Notes under the pieces: generated by a model
Told to the model about the DNA's origin: nothing
The model's database searches: none
Seen by the model: the letters and a program-made list of their open reading frames with translations, nothing else
Shown: in pieces, positions 16,473 through 23,517 of the stretch
Position numbering within the stretch: the first letter of the stretch is position 1
Layout: every line of letters starts with the position of its first letter
Sequence record: QB031381.1
Reading direction: 5' to 3' (one strand)
From: a phage
Length of the DNA: 44,356 bases
Program-made: the position numbers and the translations under genes

Positions 16473-16731
16473 CCAATAAATCACAGTCGGCTATGTTGTC
16501 GATGACGCGAACGTCCGCACCGCGGCGGGCCATTCGCTCATGTTCTCGTACCTGGTGCGGCTTCGGTTTGCCACCGGGGCGCTTCACTTCGACGAAAACT
16601 ATCTTGCCGTTGATGATGATAATCAGATCGGGCGCACCTGCGCGCCCCTCCCAAGCCACTTTGCGGCAGAATCCGCCGACGGCTTTCACCAGCTTCATAA
16701 GGTGACTTTGAATCTTGCCTTCTGGTGTCAT
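16453..16731 (-). CDS. VRR-NUC domain nuclease
   Basis: GAPDLIII...VEVK pattern (PD-(D/E)xK core) in a 92-aa protein; start overlaps the polymerase stop. Confidence 0.6.
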   Translation of the reverse strand: MTPEGKIQSHLMKLVKAVGGFCRKVAWEGRAGAPDLIIIINGKIVFVEVKRPGGKPKPHQVREHERMARRGADVRVIDNIADCDLLVAELVA

Positions 16732-19022
16732 TATTTTCTGTACCTATACATAATGTCGCCTTCCGCGGCAAGCGGGAAGCCTTTCGCCCAAACCGGCAGG
16801 TCGCACATCAGCGCGCACAACTCCTCGGTTGTGTAGTCGGCAGTATCCGGCACTTCGGTTATCAGTTCATCGTGTACGGACAGTACGATCTCATATCCAG
16901 CAGCTTCAACGCCCGGCATGGACCATGCGAGGATATCGCGACACAGCGCCTGCACGATGTTTTCCGTGAGTTTGCCGCCGTAGGTGTACTGGGATCCCCA
17001 CTGGCGCGTCGTCTGATTCTCACCCTGATATTTAATGCGGGTGCTGGTGCGTTTCTTGCCGGTATCTTCGTCGATCTCGGTCGTCACTGACAGCGCAATG
17101 CCTGGATAACTCATAATACGCCCCGACGGCAACTCAATTTTCAACCACCACCCCGCGGCGTTCGGGTCGTCGCGTTCCTCGTCGAAGGTTGGGTCATGCT
17201 TCGCCTTCGTGCGGACTATCTTGAGCGCTTTCTTTCCATCCGGGCGAACGTTCGCGCCCGCCCAGTACGCTTTGCCCGGATTGCGGATTGCACACAACAC
17301 CGCATCTTCCAGTTCGGCCCAAAAGGCTACCGTCTTCGGGTGAGCCTCGCGCCACATGCGTTTGATCGCGTCACACGTCAGCCATACGTTTTTCGGCAGT
17401 ATGTAAGTCGGGCGCTCGTCCTTCTTGCCCGGCTTCGGCGGTCGCTTCGCTTCGTTAATGCGGGCGTACTCATAACCACGTTTCGCCGCCGCCCAAATGT
17501 GATCGGGGAATGTGCCCTTCATCACGTCAGCCATCGCATAAAGGTCGAGGCCCAGGTTTTTAGCGAACTGCAAGAACGCAGCCACGCCACCACCATAGCC
17601 AAGGCCCAATTCGCACGCCTTACCGATCTGGCGTAAGTCTTTGCGGTTGGCTTTAATGTATTCCGGGTCGAGGCCGAACATTTTACCGGCAGTCTCACAA
17701 TAAATATCGCGACCGGCCCTAAACACCATTAGCGCGGTTTTCTCTCCAGCGATCCAGGCGAGGCCACGCCCTTCCACGTTGGAGTAGTCAGCCACGACAA
17801 ACTTCTTGCCCTTCGCCGGAATAATGCACCCGCGAACAGTCGAGGCCGTTAGCTTCGATATGTCATACGCCCAGTGCGCTGTCCCGCGTAACAGGGAGTT
17901 GATGCCGTTGGTGAGCATGTGCGACCGAACCCAAAAAGAAACGTCGCTCTCGCCATCCCGGCGCTTAATCTTCCCTTCGTGGTCGTCACTATACTCGCCG
18001 CGTGCCAGGTTTTGCGGCTGGAAGCCTTTACCAGCCCAGCGCAGCGTGCGCTTTGCCCCACCATACTGAAGACAACCACGGCGGCGACCATCGGAAGACA
18101 GGCCATTTACGAGCGGATTGTACTTAGTCGATGCCGTTGATGATGCCCCGAGGCGCATCTCGATAAGCACTTTGCCTTCGTCTGGGAAGTCCGGGTCTTC
18201 CAGCAGGTCGTTAAGTGTGGACTTCTGCGCGTTGTGGATCGTGAACGCAGGCGCGAGGTCGCGCAGCGCGGGCAAGAAGTCATTGCCGGTCAGCTTACCG
18301 CCGAAGCGCTCCCATGCTTCTTCCTTCAATTCTTCCTTATGCGCCTGTACCGCTTTGATCGCAGCGCGCGCCAGGTCGACGTCCACATAGAAGCCGCGGT
18401 CATTGATCAACTGGTCAATAAGCAGGATTTCGTCTTCCTTCGGCGTGTTGCCCCAGTCCGGTATGCGCCAATAGACTTCCCTCATAGCGATGATATCCAA
18501 CGCGGCATAGCGCAGGAATTTGGCCCATTCTTCTGGGTGAGTCTTGCGGGTGTAACGGCGGATTTTGTAGGTCTTAGGGGTAGGCTTACAGAATCGTTTG
18601 ATCAGCGCCTTGCCCGCCTTATCCTTCGCGTGCTCTGCGTCAACGCCCAACACCTGACACTGCATATCGAGGCTACCAGGCAACGCGTGCCGAAAGGCCA
18701 TAATCATGGTGTCTTCGATCTGGCACACTGGCAGGTCAATGCCCCACTTCTCGCGAATAACCAGGCGGTCAAACAGGAGGCCGTTAGCCATCACGATTTT
18801 TGCTTTCTTGCGGGATACCCGGCGGAGCGCCTTGCGCAGTTCACGCGGCATTGTGGGGGACTCGGTGCAATCCCACGTTTGCACGCGGCCCTCGTCGATG
18901 GCGTATGTGCAAATCATAATCTCGGTAGTTGGGTGTTCCGCGTAGGCGTACGCACCAACTTTCTTCAGGTCTACCCCGCTAAATGTCTCGGTGTCGAGAA
19001 ACAGGCGTTCGAAGTCTTTCAT
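16731..19022 (-). CDS. Family A DNA polymerase (PolI-like) with 3'-5' exonuclease domain
   Basis: Exo motif FLDTETF; polymerase motifs DYSNVEGR, KxxxLGLGYGGG and VHDEL; 763 aa. Confidence 0.85.
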   Translation of the reverse strand: MKDFERLFLDTETFSGVDLKKVGAYAYAEHPTTEIMICTYAIDEGRVQTWDCTESPTMPRELRKALRRVSRKKAKIVMANGLLFDRLVIREKWGIDLPVCQIEDTMIMAFRHALPGSLDMQCQVLGVDAEHAKDKAGKALIKRFCKPTPKTYKIRRYTRKTHPEEWAKFLRYAALDIIAMREVYWRIPDWGNTPKEDEILLIDQLINDRGFYVDVDLARAAIKAVQAHKEELKEEAWERFGGKLTGNDFLPALRDLAPAFTIHNAQKSTLNDLLEDPDFPDEGKVLIEMRLGASSTASTKYNPLVNGLSSDGRRRGCLQYGGAKRTLRWAGKGFQPQNLARGEYSDDHEGKIKRRDGESDVSFWVRSHMLTNGINSLLRGTAHWAYDISKLTASTVRGCIIPAKGKKFVVADYSNVEGRGLAWIAGEKTALMVFRAGRDIYCETAGKMFGLDPEYIKANRKDLRQIGKACELGLGYGGGVAAFLQFAKNLGLDLYAMADVMKGTFPDHIWAAAKRGYEYARINEAKRPPKPGKKDERPTYILPKNVWLTCDAIKRMWREAHPKTVAFWAELEDAVLCAIRNPGKAYWAGANVRPDGKKALKIVRTKAKHDPTFDEERDDPNAAGWWLKIELPSGRIMSYPGIALSVTTEIDEDTGKKRTSTRIKYQGENQTTRQWGSQYTYGGKLTENIVQALCRDILAWSMPGVEAAGYEIVLSVHDELITEVPDTADYTTEELCALMCDLPVWAKGFPLAAEGDIMYRYRK

Positions 19023-19246: not shown

Positions 19247-20026
19247 TTAACGGCGGCGACGTTTACGTGGTGCTTCGTCTTCGTCGTCTTCGTCCTCATC
19301 TTCATCGTCGCGCGGCTTACGACGTTTACGAGGTTTTTCATCTTCGTCGTCGTCATCGCGGCGCTTGGACTTTTTGGACTTGCGCGGCTTGTCGTCTTCG
19401 TCATCGTCATCACGACGTTTTGACTTTTTGGACTTGCGTGGGCTTTCATCTTCGTCATCGTTGTCCAGGTCTTCGTCGGAGCAAGAAGACCCGCCACCGC
19501 CGAAGGCTTCGCCGTCATCACGGAAGCGCAGACCCAAAAGACCAGCACCGAGTCCCTTGCCGTTGGTATTGTTCCACGCCCAAATATCCAGGGACACATT
19601 GCAATAACAACCGGAGTAGATCTCCTGGCCTTCGATCTCGTCGCCTTCTACGGTCAGACCTTGTTCCGTCTGCTTCTCGCCGAGTGACGTTTGAATGATC
19701 GGCTGTTTGAACGATTTGGCGTTGATGTACAACATGCCTTCGAATTCTTCGGTTACTTCGTCGCGCTCGTCACCGTCGCGAACTGCGCATTCCTTAGAAT
19801 CCTGGGCGTAGTGGCGGTCCATCCACTTATCAGCATTCTTCTCGGATTTCAGCTTGTCGGTGAGCACTGCGCGCGCTGCCGCTTCCACTTTGTCCACCTG
19901 CGGATCTTCTTTATCAAGAATAATCACTGCACGGTATGCCGGTTTTTGACCATCCTGTTTAGGGGTATCGCGTTCCCAAATTTTAAGGAAACATACGCGC
20001 ACATTTTTCAGGTTGACTTTAGCCAT
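19247..20026 (-). CDS. Putative ssDNA-binding protein with a long charged repeat C-terminal extension
   Basis: Start MAKVNLKNVRV with GAGGAA RBS. Sits between the Cas4-like nuclease and the polymerase. Gly-rich linker then an acidic/basic repeat tail. Confidence 0.5.
   Translation of the reverse strand: MAKVNLKNVRVCFLKIWERDTPKQDGQKPAYRAVIILDKEDPQVDKVEAAARAVLTDKLKSEKNADKWMDRHYAQDSKECAVRDGDERDEVTEEFEGMLYINAKSFKQPIIQTSLGEKQTEQGLTVEGDEIEGQEIYSGCYCNVSLDIWAWNNTNGKGLGAGLLGLRFRDDGEAFGGGGSSCSDEDLDNDDEDESPRKSKKSKRRDDDDEDDKPRKSKKSKRRDDDDEDEKPRKRRKPRDDEDEDEDDEDEAPRKRRRR
19250..19460 (-). repeat. In-frame tandem repeat (about 51-nt period) encoding KPRKSKKSKRRDDDDED-type units
   Basis: Near-identical nucleotide units visible at 19362..19440; about 3.5 units at protein level. 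Confidence 0.7.
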
Positions 20027-20091
20027 TTTCCAATTCCTCATTCTCGCATGTATCGGGGTTATTATGAGCCACCCCGTTCGGCTTGGTTGCT

Positions 20092-20121: not shown

Positions 20122-20359
20122 CATTTTCATTAAAAAGATTTCGGGTCACGTAGTTGGTGGCGTTCTCGACCCAGCTTAGCGGCGGGCGTTCGATGTTCTT
20201 TTCCACCCAATAGACGGCAGCTTCGCTATAGCCGTCGTCCAGCCAGCGGGTCGGATGGCGAATCATCCAGGCCACCATTAACACGCCTTGCACACAATGC
20301 AGGATAAAGCCCAGTGCGCCGAGCAAAAACATCAATAAGATTGCGAATACTTTATTCAT
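20117..20359 (-). CDS. Small membrane protein
   Basis: N-terminal TM segment (FAILLMFLLGALGFILHCV); 80 aa. Confidence 0.4.
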   Translation of the reverse strand: MNKVFAILLMFLLGALGFILHCVQGVLMVAWMIRHPTRWLDDGYSEAAVYWVEKNIERPPLSWVENATNYVTRNLFNENA

Positions 20360-21782
20360 TGCTTAAGTCCTCGTCAGTAGCTTCCGACCACGCGGGGCGC
20401 GGGTCGTCGATGGGCGCTAATACCGGTTTAGCCGGTGCGCGGGTGATTTTATCACACAGCTTCGCCCACACTTTCGGTTTTTCGTCCTTCAGCACCTTCT
20501 CGGCATCTGTCGGGCTGAGCAATGTTTCTTTGTACATCACATCGCGCTTGATCCGGGCCTTCGTGAAGATTTCAATCACTTCGCTCTCGTCTGCCCACTT
20601 ACGGATCCCTTCCTTACCGGCAACCATCTTAAGGCCCAACGATTTGCCATCGCCCGCCATGACCGCCTTGAATACCGCGGATTCGATAGCTTTGATGTGC
20701 TGGCGCATTGCGTCAAGTCCTTCATAAGCCTTGCGCAGTTCCGCCGCGCTCATAGCGCCTGGGGTGGATTCCTTCTTGCCCCGTTTAGCACGTCGGGCAG
20801 CCTTCCGGGCTTCGCGGGCCATATTGCGGTCGTGGTTGGCGCACTCTTCCTCGGTTGCCACGCTCACGTCGTCGCCCAGGTCTTCGTCGGTTGCCGTTGG
20901 TGGCGTCATTGTGTCGATTGCGGCCTTCGCCCGGACGCTGCACTGGTCCGCAAATCTGCACCACTGGCACGCATCGACGCTGGGCCGGAAGTCGGCGCGG
21001 GTCAGTCCCTTCTTGCCACGGGCGTATGTATCGAGCGCGGCGATAGCACGCTTGGACGCAAACTTCGCGGATATCTCCAGCGCTTCCACTGAGATATCCC
21101 ACTCTGACGCCCCGCCGCAATACGGCTGGAAGATGACCAGGCGCACGGTCGTAATGTCATACATGGTTTGCAGCTTGCGCAGCAGGCCGAGCGCGTACAA
21201 CATAAGCTGTTTGTTTTCTTTCGCCTCGACCTTATGTCGCCCGGTCTTCAAGTCGCCAACAATCAGCATGTACGTGCCATCGGTCTTCTTCATGACCATG
21301 ACCATATCGGCAGTGCCGAACGTCTTAACCTTGTTACCGTCGATCTCGACTCCTGGGTGGAGGACGCGGGTGAGATCGGCGCGCATCTCAAGCTGGACAA
21401 ACTCCGCCACTTCGAGGAGCGGTCGCCAGTGGTCGATGTACGCGTCGCACTGTTTCACCATATCGTCGTTGACCAGTACGCCGCCTTTCGGTGCTTTCGG
21501 GTGCGCCTTTACTGGCCCCTTGCCTTCATTCTCGACGTAACATCCTTTATACGTCTTTGCTGTTATCAGCTTTTCACCGGCGATAATGCGGTTTAGCACC
21601 ACTTCAGATACGGTGTGCATACTCGTACCGTTAATCGCGGCTTGCCCGGATTCGTTCGGGATATCTTTTTCTACCACCAGGGCGGCGGGACACCCCATCC
21701 ATTTTTTAGCACCGGATGGGCCAAGTAATGAGTGTTCCGTATTGCTGCCGGATTGCGTTTTACGTTTTGGTTTAATCGCCAT
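20352..21782 (-). CDS. PD-(D/E)xK exonuclease, Cas4-like, with four-Cys cluster
   Basis: N-terminal SGAKKWMGCPA plus C-terminal CQWCRFADQC (C-x2-C-x5-C) gives a four-Cys arrangement like Cas4/AddB-type Fe-S nucleases; 476 aa. Confidence 0.6.
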   Translation of the reverse strand: MAIKPKRKTQSGSNTEHSLLGPSGAKKWMGCPAALVVEKDIPNESGQAAINGTSMHTVSEVVLNRIIAGEKLITAKTYKGCYVENEGKGPVKAHPKAPKGGVLVNDDMVKQCDAYIDHWRPLLEVAEFVQLEMRADLTRVLHPGVEIDGNKVKTFGTADMVMVMKKTDGTYMLIVGDLKTGRHKVEAKENKQLMLYALGLLRKLQTMYDITTVRLVIFQPYCGGASEWDISVEALEISAKFASKRAIAALDTYARGKKGLTRADFRPSVDACQWCRFADQCSVRAKAAIDTMTPPTATDEDLGDDVSVATEEECANHDRNMAREARKAARRAKRGKKESTPGAMSAAELRKAYEGLDAMRQHIKAIESAVFKAVMAGDGKSLGLKMVAGKEGIRKWADESEVIEIFTKARIKRDVMYKETLLSPTDAEKVLKDEKPKVWAKLCDKITRAPAKPVLAPIDDPRPAWSEATDEDLSNE

Positions 21783-21970: not shown

Positions 21971-22222
21971 TTATTTTGTCTCCCAGCGGTCAATTGTTTT
22001 TGCTTCGGATGCAACTGCGAAGCGAACATATTCCAGATTGGAATCCGCCCAAATATAAAAGTCGGGGTTAGTAAAAGTGGTGCGCTTAATTTGCGCGGGG
22101 GTGTTGCGGCGTTTATCAATTACAGCAACGCGTGACTGAAAGCTGCCGATGCGTTCGAATAACCAATAGTACGGGCGCTGGTCGCGGGAATCCACCGCCT
22201 CGATTAGCGTGAAGCGTGCCAT
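21971..22222 (-). CDS. Hypothetical protein
   Basis: 83-aa ORF immediately downstream of a terminator hairpin. Confidence 0.4.
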   Translation of the reverse strand: MARFTLIEAVDSRDQRPYYWLFERIGSFQSRVAVIDKRRNTPAQIKRTTFTNPDFYIWADSNLEYVRFAVASEAKTIDRWETK

Positions 22223-22232
22223 TGTCTCGTCC

Positions 22233-22262
22233 TCTAAAAAGAGGCCCGCAGATTAGCGGGCC
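22233..22262 (-). terminator. Rho-independent terminator
   Basis: Minus strand GGCCCGC-TAATCT-GCGGGCC followed by TCTTTTT. Confidence 0.5.
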
Positions 22263-22270
22263 GGATAATA

Positions 22271-22786
22271 TTAGTCTTCCAGTTCGAAATACGTTTCTAC
22301 GATTTCTTTAAGTTCTGTGTGGAAGTCTGCCACGTCGTCGTCTTCCAGTTTAGCGATTGATTTGATCTCGAACGATTCCAGCAGGTCGTCAAATTCGTCG
22401 TTCGCATCATCATCATCACCGCCAGCGATAATCGCGGCATACTGTTTGATCTCGTCGCGCATCTCTGCCAGCGGATCGGCATCTTTCTTACCTTTGCCTT
22501 TCGCTGGTGCTTTTTTACCCTTCGCCGGTTTTTCGTCTTCGGCGTCATCCTCGTCGTCATCATCCTCTACGACTTCTTTTTTGGCCTTACCTTTCGCCGG
22601 GGCTTTTTTGGTTTTCGCGGGTGCTTCGTCTTCAGCGTCGTCATCTTCTACGACTTCTTTTTTGGCCTTAGACGGCTTTTTATCTTCCTGCTTACCAACG
22701 GCAGCGCCAACGGTTTCATAATGTTTAGCGATGATTTCCAGTGCTACTACGCCGCGAGTGATCAGGTTTACGATTTGCTCAAACAT
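22271..22786 (-). CDS. Acidic protein with lysine-rich and Asp/Glu-rich tandem repeats; first gene of the leftward operon
   Basis: Internal ATG (MFEQIVNL) with GGAG RBS. Alternating KKAPAKGK and EVVEDDDAEDE blocks and an acidic C-terminus. Confidence 0.5.
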   Translation of the reverse strand: MFEQIVNLITRGVVALEIIAKHYETVGAAVGKQEDKKPSKAKKEVVEDDDAEDEAPAKTKKAPAKGKAKKEVVEDDDDEDDAEDEKPAKGKKAPAKGKGKKDADPLAEMRDEIKQYAAIIAGGDDDDANDEFDDLLESFEIKSIAKLEDDDVADFHTELKEIVETYFELED

Positions 22787-22982
22787 GGTATATCTCCGAT
22801 TGGTTAAGTTTAGGTGTCGACAGTTAACTTCGTCGGTGGCCTTAACATAGTGCCTGGTTGCGCGTTCTCCCTTTCGGGTAGTGGACCAGGTTATATAATC
22901 ACGGTTGGGAATCCTGACACTTCGATCCGGCCCCTGCGTTGCCCCTCTCCAGTTTGCGTCCTGCATCCTGTCGACGGGGTGA

Positions 22983-23012
22983 ATAATAGATTGGTTGCAG
23001 GATAGGTGTCAA
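22983..23012 (-). promoter_or_regulatory. Candidate leftward promoter (TTGACA-N18-TATTAT)
   Basis: Minus-strand reading; the spacer contains a TTGGTTGC copy (22991..22998). Confidence 0.4.
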
Positions 23013-23022
23013 CAACTAATTT

Positions 23023-23057
23023 AAAAAAAAAGCGCCGAGGCAAAATGCAACGGCGCT
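23023..23057 (-). terminator. Orphan intrinsic-terminator-like hairpin in the divergent control region
   Basis: Minus-strand AGCGCCG-loop-CGGCGCT followed by nine U; lies between the leftward and rightward promoters. Confidence 0.4.
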
Positions 23058-23127
23058 AACCAATAAGAGACAATGAGACGGGAGTATTATTACACGCGTG
23101 CGCGCCCGTTTCAATATTCCAAAGGAG

Positions 23128-23156
23128 TTGACACCCCGCGGTTTTAGGTGTAGTTT
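23128..23156 (+). promoter_or_regulatory. Candidate rightward promoter (TTGACA-N17-TAGTTT)
   Basis: Consensus -35 hexamer 55 nt upstream of the ATG at 23188. Confidence 0.45.
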
Positions 23157-23187
23157 CGTTGGTCATTAACCAACCGGAGACAGAACA

Positions 23188-23517
23188 ATGAATATCGACG
23201 ACGCAATCGAAATGTTAACTAAGACTGTTTGCAGTGAGACAAGCCGGTCCTGGGCATATACCGATGCCGTGGGTGCGGTGCTATTTGAAATCGAACGTCT
23301 GCGACTTACCGAAAAAGAATTGCGCGCGAAGCTGGAATTACTCAACGGTACGGCAGCAAGCAAGCTGCAAAAGCACAATGAGGAAATGGAAGAATACAAA
23401 AAACAGGTTATCCGTTTGCGCGATGAGGGGAAGTCATGGGCAATGATCGCTGAGTTGACAGGAATTAACCAAAGCACCGTGCGCTCCTGGGTACGCAATA
23501 ACAAAACTTCTAAGTAA
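23188..23517 (+). CDS. Small DNA-binding protein with C-terminal HTH
   Basis: C-terminal helix-turn-helix-like segment (KSWAMIAELTGINQSTVRSWV); first gene of the rightward operon. Confidence 0.5.
   Translation: MNIDDAIEMLTKTVCSETSRSWAYTDAVGAVLFEIERLRLTEKELRAKLELLNGTAASKLQKHNEEMEEYKKQVIRLRDEGKSWAMIAELTGINQSTVRSWVRNNKTSK

What the first reader, a model, noticed from the sequence alone, without database searches (positions are those of the whole stretch)
22271..22786. First gene of the leftward early operon encodes an acidic protein with alternating lysine-rich and Asp/Glu-rich repeats
The protein alternates KKAPAKGK-like basic blocks with EVVEDDDAEDE acidic blocks (about 84-nt tandem repeats at 22470..22690) and ends with a strongly acidic tail. 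First-expressed, highly acidic phage proteins are often DNA mimics that block restriction or other nucleic-acid-targeting defences, as T7 Ocr does. The lysine-rich AKKAPAK repeats instead resemble histone-H1-like DNA-binding tails. Either reading suggests an early host or defence-interference role.
Basis: inference. Interest (0 to 1): 0.55.

Follow-up and report, generated by a model that had tools for sequence, protein, structure and literature searches.

The report
Conserved partner of phage exonuclease module
The acidic repeat protein is real, but its repeats are a floppy, fast-changing linker in an uncharacterised phage protein that always sits just before the exonuclease, DNA-binding protein and polymerase genes, so it most likely assists DNA replication or recombination and is unlikely to be a T7 Ocr-style anti-restriction decoy.

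Summary
Window 22271..22786 (-) encodes a 171-aa protein with pI 4.4 and net charge -23. It has two tandem 27/31-aa units of acidic plus lysine-rich blocks.

The window is a Dhillonvirus (HK578-like E. coli siphovirus). The protein has three parts: a conserved N-terminal amphipathic helix, a disordered linker, and a very conserved acidic three-helix C-terminal domain. The linker carries all the repeats and ranges from about 15 to 80 aa among natural variants.

No Pfam family matched the protein or its relatives. The PHROGs it matches are all 'unknown function'. A profile of the C-domain finds 637 clusters among 1.84 billion proteins.

In all nine lineages examined, from E. coli to Bacillus and Streptococcus phages, the gene lies just upstream of the DUF2800 exonuclease, Gp2.5-like SSB and PolA genes. 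The reverse test found it clearly in 8 of 12 diverse DUF2800 loci.

I read it as a non-enzymatic accessory or adaptor of this replication-recombination module. Its function is inferred, not shown. The Ocr reading is not supported: published plating data show Dhillonviruses are restricted by type I, II and III systems.

In passing, the gene's 5' leader holds a ~160-nt structured RNA with strong covariation and no Rfam match.

The parts
22983..23012 (-). sigma-70-type promoter TTGACA-18-TATTAT that drives the gene
   Evidence: 11 of 12 consensus matches. Conserved in all 22 distinct Dhillonvirus upstream regions aligned.
22813..22976 (-). Structured RNA element in the 5' leader, about 160 nt in 8 helices including a GNRA-capped hairpin
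   Evidence: Covariance model R1 scores 176.7 bits here. 92.4% of cells pair, against 29-43% when partners are slid. 19 pairs show compensatory changes, reached by 0 of 500 shuffles. No Rfam match at E<=1. Present in 16 of 22 Dhillonvirus leaders and cleanly absent in 6.
22794..22797 (-). Shine-Dalgarno GGAG, 7 nt before the ATG
   Evidence: Read from the sequence. Conserved in the alignment.
22271..22786 (-). CDS of the 171-aa acidic protein (PHROG 3127), stop codon included
   Evidence: All 103 homologues carry the MFEQ-type N-terminus at the true start or after an upstream extension.
22706..22783 (-). N-terminal amphipathic helix, aa 2-27
   Evidence: AF2 helix 2-27 with pLDDT about 72. Nearly invariant in the genus. 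A hydrophobic 3-4 spacing recurs in distant relatives (MSLEQKIEELTxAVxxLTEAM).
22475..22705 (-). Disordered polyampholyte linker, aa 28-104, holding the K-rich and D/E-rich blocks
   Evidence: pLDDT <50. Indel-rich, about 15 to 80 aa among homologues. Net -5 over aa 34-111.
22493..22666 (-). The two tandem repeat units, aa 41-67 and aa 68-98
   Evidence: Direct DNA repeats D1 and D3. Protein units are identical at 25 of 27 aligned positions (sequence).
22274..22474 (-). Acidic three-helix C-terminal domain, aa 105-171; the defining domain of the family
   Evidence: pLDDT >90 in the full-length model and mean 88 for the domain alone. At least 86.6% identical in the 40 records listed, spread across the ranking of 155 phage records that match. 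Its profile finds 637 clusters at E<=1e-3. No Pfam family matches it.
22243..22262 (-). Intrinsic terminator hairpin GGCCCGC-N6-GCGGGCC plus T-run, directly after the stop codon
   Evidence: Stem conserved in 20 of 23 Dhillonvirus loci while the loop varies (TAATCT / AGATTA / TATTCT / AGAATA).
20352..21782 (-). DUF2800 / PD-(D/E)XK exonuclease, the invariant downstream neighbour of the family
   Evidence: Pfam PF10926 E 7e-65. Synteny.
19247..20041 (-). Enc34 / Gp2.5-like SSB with its own alternating acidic/basic C-terminal tail ending in RKRRRR
   Evidence: Pfam PF10991 E 3.4e-31. Tail sequence. 54-nt tandem repeat at 19336-19461.
16731..19022 (-). Family A DNA polymerase of the same module
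   Evidence: Pfam PF00476.

Best explanation
The gene encodes the Dhillonvirus member of a large, uncharacterised phage protein family. That family is a conserved extra component of the 'duf2800-gp2.5-polA' replication/recombination module.

The protein is not an enzyme. It has three parts:
- an N-terminal amphipathic helix, probably for self-association or partner binding;
- a disordered linker of free length and composition, which in this phage is made of alternating lysine-rich and Asp/Glu-rich blocks that expand and contract by repeat slippage;
- a small, acidic three-helix C-terminal domain that defines the family.

I propose that it works as a flexible adaptor or regulator. It would bind basic, DNA-binding surfaces of its module partners. 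The most likely partners are the DUF2800 exonuclease encoded right after it, or the Gp2.5-like single-strand-binding/annealing protein. It would tether or control them at DNA ends or forks.

The strong promoter, together with the terminator right after the gene, suggests it is made in greater amounts than the downstream enzymes.

Shown here: the architecture, the conservation pattern, the breadth of the family and the synteny. Inferred: the binding partners and the mechanism.
For: **Architecture.**
- AF2 gives a helix at 2-27, disorder at 28-104 and a three-helix bundle at 105-167 with pLDDT >90.
- The N-helix and C-domain are nearly invariant, while the linker is full of indels.

**Core gene.** The C-domain is at least 86.6% identical in the 40 listed records, spread across the ranking of 155 phage records that match.

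**Breadth.**
- The C-domain profile finds 637 clusters at 50% identity with E<=1e-3.
- Most are proteins of 100-250 aa with the domain at the C-terminus, and 30 of 154 have two copies.

**Synteny.**
- The order target, DUF2800 exonuclease, Gp2.5-like SSB, PolA holds in all nine lineages examined. These include Bacillus Carmen17, Salmonella PVP-SE2, Streptococcus Javan320 and metagenomic phages.
- The target's stop overlaps the exonuclease start in L033, L034, Staphylococcus SH-St15644, Xylella Xfas53 and an Oscillospiraceae phage.

**Converse test.** Among 12 diverse DUF2800 loci, an upstream same-strand ORF carries the domain in 8, with weak hits in 2 more.

**Literature.** The duf2800-gp2.5-polA module is already described, without this gene (PMC8093625).

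**Family-wide chemistry.** Median pI is 4.7, median C-domain net charge is -7, and the linker is about 22% K/R and 21% D/E with net 0.

**Possible SSB link (three cases only).** SSBs of the Dhillonvirus, L029 and Jerseyvirus groups end in basic tips (RKRRRR). Most of the other modules listed end in an acidic tip with an aromatic residue near the end. The Dhillonvirus and Jerseyvirus targets have hyper-acidic C-domains.

**One fusion.** P0181 joins an SNF2 helicase to this protein.
Against: - No experiment exists for any member of the family.
- No physical interaction has been shown or modelled.
- Synteny shows functional linkage, not mechanism.
- The domain went undetected in 2 of 12 DUF2800 loci and was weak in 2 others.
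- The single SNF2 fusion may be a gene-calling read-through.
- A BFVD structural match is named a 'late protein' of Salmonella phage MB78. That sits uneasily with an early role, and I did not verify it.
Confidence: 0.5

Rival explanations
1. It is a decoy for host end-processing nucleases (RecBCD, AddAB), working as lambda Gam or T7 gp5.9 do. An acidic, probably oligomeric protein would occupy the nuclease's DNA-binding channel and protect linear phage DNA and recombination intermediates.
For: - The protein is acidic (pI 4.4), and its C-domain carries net -18 over aa 112-171.
- 94% of 147 relatives have pI <6, and 77% of C-domains are at -3 or lower.
- The gene sits just before the phage exonuclease. 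T7 gene 5.9 likewise precedes gene 6, and lambda gam precedes bet and exo (lambda gene order; the T7 order is from my own knowledge).
- No other candidate RecBCD inhibitor turned up among the neighbouring genes scanned against Pfam.
- A strong promoter and a terminator right after the gene would suit an abundant, stoichiometric inhibitor.
Against: - 13% of C-domains have net charge 0 or higher. What is conserved is a hydrophobic core and a helix-loop motif, not a pattern of charges.
- No sequence or fold match to Gam, gp5.9, Ocr or ArdA.
- The same domain is kept in phages whose hosts use different end nucleases.
- Some relatives carry two or three tandem copies of the domain.
- A lysine-rich segment is always kept next to the domain within the genus.
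Confidence: 0.2
2. It is a DNA-binding architectural protein, in the manner of phi29 p6 or H-NS. Under this reading the N-terminal helix oligomerises, the lysine-rich linker binds the DNA minor groove, and the protein organises the origin or the replicating genome.
For: - The K-rich stretch next to the C-domain (consensus PAKxKKAPAKGKGKK) is largely conserved, and its last part (KGK-KK, aa 96-101) is nearly invariant in the genus, even in the shortest variants.
- Distant relatives carry AT-hook-like KRGRKP or PKKRGRKPK motifs.
- 60% of relatives have linkers with at least 20% K/R.
- The family profile weakly matches the helix plus K/P-rich N-terminus of alphavirus capsid proteins (E 0.007).
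- One relative matches Pfam HC2, a histone-H1-like protein (E 3.1e-5).
- The gene lies next to the divergent promoter region.
Against: - The linker is net -5 and the whole protein net -23.
- Linkers in Xylella, Oscillospiraceae and Staphylococcus phage relatives are not lysine-rich.
- The window protein matches no DNA-binding family in Pfam.
- The conserved folded domain is acidic, which is the wrong charge for binding DNA.
Confidence: 0.12
3. It is an Ocr-type DNA mimic that blocks type I restriction or BREX.
For: It is the first gene after a strong promoter, highly acidic, and has no enzymatic domain.
Against: - Published efficiency-of-plating data (PMC8594841 S1 Data and S5 Table) show Dhillonvirus Bas15, with one EcoCFT_I site, plating at 0.006-0.014 on that type I system.
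- Bas14, Bas15 and Bas16 plate at 10^-2 to below 10^-13 on EcoRI, EcoRV and the type III systems.
- BASEL Dhillonviruses have only 0-2 type I sites each. This looks like site avoidance.
- The acidic blocks are predicted to be disordered and are absent in natural variants.
- No fold or sequence match to Ocr or ArdA.
- The gene is a syntenic core gene, not an accessory one.
Confidence: 0.04

Closest known systems
The duf2800-gp2.5-polA module of phages (PD-(D/E)XK exonuclease DUF2800, Gp2.5/Enc34-type SSB-annealase PF10991, family A polymerase), as described in PMC8093625
   Same: The gene is physically part of this module in every lineage examined. It lies upstream of the exonuclease on the same strand, and its stop overlaps the exonuclease start in several phages.
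   Different: The published description lists three genes and does not mention this one. The protein has no Pfam family and no named function.
C-terminal domain of lambda Red-beta (PDB 6m9k) and lambda Orf/NinB (1pc6)
   Same: - Each is a small helical bundle in a recombination protein encoded beside a PD-(D/E)XK exonuclease.
- The Red-beta domain binds lambda Exo, as stated in the title of entry 6m9k.
   Different: - Profile-profile comparison finds no homology: hhalign probability 0.2%. An HMM search of Bet homologues also finds nothing.
- De novo designed bundles score higher, so the fold match is generic.
- Here the domain is a separate protein with its own helix and linker, not the tail of an annealase.
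T7 gp5.9 and lambda Gam (acidic DNA-mimic inhibitors of RecBCD)
   Same: Small, acidic, non-enzymatic phage proteins encoded just upstream of the phage exonuclease gene (lambda gene order; the T7 order is from my own knowledge).
   Different: No sequence or fold similarity. The family also includes members that are not acidic, and members with repeated domains.
T7 Ocr (gp0.3)
   Same: An acidic product of a promoter-proximal gene.
   Different: - Ocr is a rigid folded dimer whose surface charges copy bent B-DNA (my own knowledge).
- Here the acidic blocks are in a disordered, dispensable linker.
- Phages carrying the gene are restricted by a type I system.
Blocky acidic/basic disordered regions of eukaryotic nucleolar proteins (nucleolin, Nopp140, BUD22, NSA1)
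   Same: Alternating K/P/A-rich and D/E-rich blocks. These produce the only, sub-threshold, database matches: BUD22 at E 0.012 and NSA1 at E about 5.
   Different: The similarity is one of composition only, well below the curated cut-offs. It does not indicate homology.

Membership tests
PHROG 3127 (phage protein family, function unknown) | Full-length match to the family profile | tested here: met
   E 1.7e-53, covering residues 1-171 against profile positions 1-178.
duf2800-gp2.5-polA module (as an added component) | Encoded on the same strand directly upstream of DUF2800 exonuclease, Gp2.5-like SSB and PolA | tested here: met
   True in the window and in all nine lineages examined. In the converse test, 8 of 12 diverse DUF2800 loci were clear and 2 weak.
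Ocr / ArdA-type DNA-mimic anti-restriction proteins | Sequence or fold similarity to Ocr or ArdA | tested here: not met
Ocr / ArdA-type DNA-mimic anti-restriction proteins | Acidic residues displayed on a rigid folded surface that copies the DNA backbone | tested here: not met
   The repeated acidic blocks lie in aa 28-104, where pLDDT is <50. They are missing in natural variants P0097, P0082 and P0092. The folded C-domain is acidic but is only a compact bundle of about 60 aa.
Ocr / ArdA-type DNA-mimic anti-restriction proteins | Phage carrying the gene escapes type I restriction | tested here: not met
   This rests on published data, not a test of the gene itself. Bas15, with one EcoCFT_I site, plates at 0.006-0.014 on that system (PMC8594841 S1 Data and S5 Table).
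Histone H1-like / HC2-type lysine-rich DNA-binding tails | Net basic K/A/P-rich region and a match to PF07382 or similar | tested here: not met
   The linker is net -5 and the protein net -23. The window protein has no Pfam HC2 hit. One distant relative does hit it, at E 3.1e-5.
Red-beta C-terminal domain / lambda Orf (NinB) fold | Structural similarity | tested here: inconclusive
Red-beta C-terminal domain / lambda Orf (NinB) fold | Detectable sequence-profile homology | tested here: not met
   hhalign of 137 family C-domains against lambda-type Bet C-domains gives probability 0.2% and E 0.28. An HMM search of Bet homologues finds nothing with E below 0.9.
Red-beta C-terminal domain / lambda Orf (NinB) fold | Binds the cognate exonuclease or SSB | not testable with these tools
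   This needs co-purification or complex modelling.
Lambda Gam / T7 gp5.9 RecBCD inhibitors | Sequence or fold similarity; inhibition of RecBCD | tested here: not met
   No similarity was found. Inhibition cannot be tested here. Only the gene's position resembles theirs.
Rfam families (for the leader RNA) | Match to any of the 4227 covariance models | tested here: not met
   A search at E<=1 over 22100-23300 gave no hit that covers the 22813-22976 element. The listed weak hits lie elsewhere (one, STnc480 at 23021-23082 on the other strand, E 0.32, is upstream of the element).

The most novel reading that the evidence does not exclude
The family is a multivalent, oligomeric scaffold with three features:
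- a coiled-coil head;
- a polyampholyte linker;
- one to three acidic binding domains.

Under this reading it gathers the exonuclease, the Gp2.5-like SSB and the replisome into a hub or condensate on phage DNA.

In Dhillonviruses this would work through charge-block pairing with the SSB. The SSB's own tail carries the same alternating acidic/basic repeats and ends in RKRRRR instead of the usual acidic-aromatic tip. This would be a previously unrecognised organising principle for one of the most widespread phage replication modules.
Probability: 0.12. Interest if true: 0.8.

Novelty: new variant of a known kind. Interest (0 to 1): 0.5.

Why it matters
The DUF2800 exonuclease module is very widespread. 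A tblastn search with one such exonuclease matched 1,634 of 50,697 phage records, from phages of Gram-positive, Gram-negative, Bacteroidota and actinobacterial hosts. The module is described in the literature as three genes.

This work shows that a fourth, uncharacterised protein travels with it almost everywhere. That gives a concrete candidate for how the exonuclease and annealing protein are loaded, coupled or protected. It also defines a domain that no Pfam family matched, and it gives annotators grounds to stop labelling the gene 'prohead core protein' or extending it to 231 aa.

It is also a caution against over-reading. Striking charge repeats in a phage protein can be a neutral, slippage-prone linker and need not be the functional surface.

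The structured RNA in the leader sits right after early promoters in several unrelated coliphage groups and has strong covariation. It is a separate, testable lead on early transcript control.

Tried and rejected
1. **Direct homology.**
   - Pfam gave only a sub-threshold BUD22 hit.
   - PDB sequence searches with the protein and with two profiles found nothing significant.
2. **Fold searches.**
   - Foldseek against the PDB found nothing with E below 0.5.
3. **Red-beta C-domain homology.**
   - The fold hits suggested this.
   - I fetched lambda bet, collected 120 homologues and ran an HMM search and hhalign.
   - Both were negative.
4. **'Prohead core protein' annotation** (phage UDS3lw). 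Rejected as a low-complexity artefact, given the gene's replication-module context.
5. **'DNA recombination nuclease inhibitor gamma' and 'transposase' labels.**
   - These belong to the neighbouring 109-aa HTH protein at 23188..23517, not to this gene.
6. **The 231-aa ORF from ATG 22966.** Rejected as non-coding.
7. **Related-locus searches.**
   - Narrower ones returned mostly close relatives.
8. **tblastn with P0104 against phages.** No match.
9. **Terminator after the gene in distant relatives.** The simple scan showed no conserved terminator there.
10. **Antitermination reading of the leader RNA.**
    - Terminator scans downstream of the element in two other phages were uninformative.
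    - Single-sequence folding energy was no better than shuffles, z -0.17.

Full report
**What is there**

The window is a Dhillonvirus, an HK578-like E. coli siphovirus. The 4-kb stretch around the finding is 97.5% identical to Escherichia phage HH3 and matches 179 phage records.

The ORF at 22271..22786 (-) starts at an ATG preceded by GGAG. It encodes 171 aa, with pI 4.42, 51 D/E against 28 K/R, and net charge -23.

- Two DNA copies of 79 nt (75% identical) and two of 48 nt (85%) lie 81-93 nt apart.
- They encode units AKKEVVEDDD..AEDE(A/K)PAK(T/G)KKAPAKGK at aa 41-67 and 68-98.

An 11/12 sigma-70 promoter lies at 23012..22983. An intrinsic terminator hairpin follows the stop codon at 22262..22243. 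Its stem is kept in 20 of 23 Dhillonvirus loci while the loop varies.

**Anatomy**

A homology search returned 103 proteins with E<=0.001, nearly all Dhillonvirus homologues. They share three features:
- a nearly invariant N-terminus (MFEQIVNLITRGVVALE.IAKHYETVGAAV);
- a nearly invariant C-terminal ~68 aa;
- a middle segment that varies from about 15 to about 80 aa through gain and loss of blocks.

Natural variants of 115-124 aa (P0097, P0082, P0092) have no acidic block at all. They keep a short lysine-rich stretch next to the C-terminal part.

AlphaFold2 on this alignment gives three regions:
- a helix at 2-27 (pLDDT about 72);
- no structure at 28-104 (pLDDT <50);
- a three-helix bundle at 105-167 (pLDDT >90).

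The C-terminal domain modelled alone has mean pLDDT 88. So the repeats are a disordered, slippage-prone linker, and the 'acidic tail' is a folded domain.

**Family**

No curated family matches the protein or its relatives:
- Pfam gives only a sub-threshold BUD22 hit.
- PHROG 3127 matches at E 1.7e-53 but is annotated 'unknown function'.

One distant homologue, P0103 (32% identity), and its relatives show the same three-part plan. Some also carry AT-hook-like KRGRKP motifs and acidic tails ending in a hydrophobic residue.

A profile of the C-terminal domain alone was searched against 1.84 billion representative proteins:
- It found 637 clusters at E<=1e-3.
- Most are proteins of 100-250 aa with the domain at the C-terminus.
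- 30 of the 154 relatives analysed have two copies of the domain.
- One is fused behind an SNF2 helicase.

Among the 145 newly found relatives scanned, the only significant Pfam domains are those of that helicase. Fourteen of the PHROGs they match are hit by more than one member, and all of those are 'unknown function'.

Across these relatives:
- Median pI is 4.7.
- Median C-domain net charge is -7, with a range of -16 to +4.
- The linker has a median length of 47 aa, about 22% K/R and 21% D/E, and net charge 0.

**Context**

This is the strongest evidence. In every lineage I could examine, the gene lies on the same strand just upstream of the DUF2800 PD-(D/E)XK exonuclease. The Gp2.5/Enc34-type SSB and a family A polymerase follow. 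The gene is often divergent from a primase-helicase.

The lineages are:
- two metagenomic phages;
- Bacillus phage Carmen17, Salmonella Jerseyvirus PVP-SE2 and Streptococcus prophage Javan320;
- further viral contigs.

In several of them the stop codon overlaps the exonuclease start.

For the converse test I took 12 diverse phages that carry a DUF2800 exonuclease, drawn from 1,634 matching records. I scanned the upstream ORFs with the domain HMM:
- Eight have a clear hit: Staphylococcus, Bacteroides, Brevibacterium, Xylella, a Chi-like Salmonella phage, Pseudomonas, Oscillospiraceae and Xanthomonas.
- Two have weak hits.
- Two have none, although by eye their upstream ORFs end in a similar motif.

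The literature describes a 'duf2800-gp2.5-polA module' but not this gene (PMC8093625).

**What it most likely does**

The protein has no catalytic domain. It is conserved at both ends, free in the middle, acidic, and tied to an exonuclease and an SSB-annealase. It is most simply read as an adaptor or regulator of those proteins.

The acidic C-domain would dock on a basic DNA-binding surface. The N-helix would provide self-association or a second contact. The linker would act as a tether.

Two local observations fit a link to the SSB, but both are anecdotal:
- This phage's SSB has a C-terminal tail of the same alternating acidic/basic style, with a 54-nt tandem repeat.
- The SSBs of the Dhillonvirus, L029 and Jerseyvirus groups end in a basic tip (RKRRRR). 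Most of the other modules listed end in an acidic tip with an aromatic residue near the end. The Dhillonvirus and Jerseyvirus proteins have the most acidic C-domains.

All of this is inference. I give the module-accessory reading 0.5.

**Rivals**

*Gam- or gp5.9-like decoy for RecBCD/AddAB (0.2).*
- It fits the acidity and the position before the exonuclease.
- It has no fold or sequence support.
- It fits poorly with family members that are not acidic or that carry repeated domains.

*Architectural DNA-binding role (0.12).*
- It fits the conserved lysine-rich stretch and the AT-hook-like motifs.
- It does not fit the net negative charge or the non-basic linkers of distant members.

*Ocr-type anti-restriction (0.04).* This is contradicted by published BASEL data (PMC8594841):
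- Dhillonviruses are described there as comparatively sensitive to type I and II systems.
- Bas15, with a single EcoCFT_I site, plates at 0.006-0.014 on that system.
- Bas14, Bas15 and Bas16 plate at 10^-2 to below 10^-13 on EcoRI, EcoRV and the type III systems.
- The genomes carry only 0-2 type I sites each.

**A lead that failed**

Fold searches listed the exonuclease-binding C-terminal domain of lambda Red-beta (6m9k) and lambda NinB.

I tested this by building a lambda-type Bet C-domain alignment and comparing profiles. hhalign gave probability 0.2%.

**Beyond the finding: a structured RNA in the leader**

Between the promoter and the ribosome-binding site lies a ~160-nt block (22813..22976, -).
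- It is almost invariant in 16 of 22 distinct Dhillonvirus leaders and cleanly absent in the other 6.
- Frame-breaking indels show that the 231-aa ORF drawn across it is not coding.
- The same block occurs right after -10 boxes at the heads of unrelated gene sets in Warwickvirus, Changchunvirus, Murrayvirus and other contigs.

On 12 sequences, a structure of 43 pairs in 8 helices was tested:
- 92.4% of cells pair, against 29-43% when the partners are slid.
- 19 pairs show compensatory changes, reached by 0 of 500 shuffles.

A covariance model scores 153-177 bits on the copies and finds one copy in the window.

Rfam has no match. Only one of 185,579 species genomes holds the core motif.

Its function is unknown. 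A promoter-proximal role, such as transcript stability or read-through of the terminator that follows the gene, is a guess that my scans could not test.

**Verdict**

A DNA-related, non-enzymatic role is likely. The Ocr-like and histone-like readings are not supported.

The gene is a member of a large, undescribed family that belongs to a known replication-recombination module. I rate it as a new variant of a known kind (a phage recombination/replication accessory factor), with interest 0.5.

Noticed in passing
window 22813..22976 (-), in the 5' leader of the gene: A ~160-nt structured RNA sits directly after the promoter.
- It has 43 pairs in 8 helices and 92.4% of cells pair. 19 pairs show compensatory changes, reached by 0 of 500 shuffles.
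- The covariance model scores 176.7 bits here.
- There is no Rfam match.
- It is present in 16 of 22 Dhillonvirus leaders and absent in 6.
- It is also found after -10 boxes at the heads of unrelated early gene sets in Warwickvirus, Changchunvirus and Murrayvirus phages.
- Only 1 hit turned up in 185,579 species genomes.
   Followed up: yes
window 19247..20041 (-), tail encoded around 19250..19470: The Enc34/Gp2.5-like SSB has a ~75-aa C-terminal tail of alternating acidic and K/R blocks, encoded by a 54-nt tandem repeat at 19336-19461. It ends in RKRRRR, whereas most of the other modules listed end in an acidic tip with an aromatic residue near the end. Basic-tipped SSBs were seen only in the Dhillonvirus, L029 and Jerseyvirus groups. 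The Dhillonvirus and Jerseyvirus partner proteins are the most acidic.
   Followed up: partly
window about 23022..23114 (-): A promoter-like site (TTGAAA-17-AATAAT with an upstream TG, 23114..23086) is followed about 25 nt later by the hairpin GCGCCG-N13-CGGCGC and a run of nine T. This could be a small RNA of about 60 nt, or a terminator placed just upstream of the main promoter. It is the most conserved part of the intergenic region in all 22 Dhillonvirus sequences. Only weak Rfam hits of the terminator type fall here.
   Followed up: no
window 22243..22262 (-): In the terminator after the gene, the stem is conserved but the loop occurs in two reverse-complement versions among Dhillonviruses, TAATCT and AGATTA. 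This suggests the hairpin tip has inverted. Three loci carry an extra small ORF here in place of the hairpin.
   Followed up: partly
window 23188..23517 (+): This 109-aa protein has a C-terminal helix-turn-helix (HTH_23, E 4.6e-7). Public records label it either 'transposase' or 'DNA recombination nuclease inhibitor gamma'. Neither label fits a small HTH protein sitting before the primase-helicase; it is probably a regulator.
   Followed up: no
locus L009 874..1365 (Bas85_0051); window 22317..22721 (+): In phage RuthEpting_Bas85, the annotation calls the serine-rich antisense ORF on the opposite strand and leaves the real gene unannotated. Other records extend the gene to 203-239 aa through the non-coding leader.
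   Followed up: partly
protein P0181 (649 aa, from the representative search): An SNF2-family helicase is fused in frame to a complete copy of this family: N-helix, K-rich linker and two C-domains. It is either a genuine fusion that links the family to the module's helicase, or a read-through of adjacent genes.
   Followed up: no
BFVD entry Q9T1Z8 (Salmonella phage MB78): A structural match (Foldseek E 9.4e-4, 25% identity) carries the old name '13.88 kDa late protein'. This would conflict with early expression if the name reflects measured timing.
   Followed up: no
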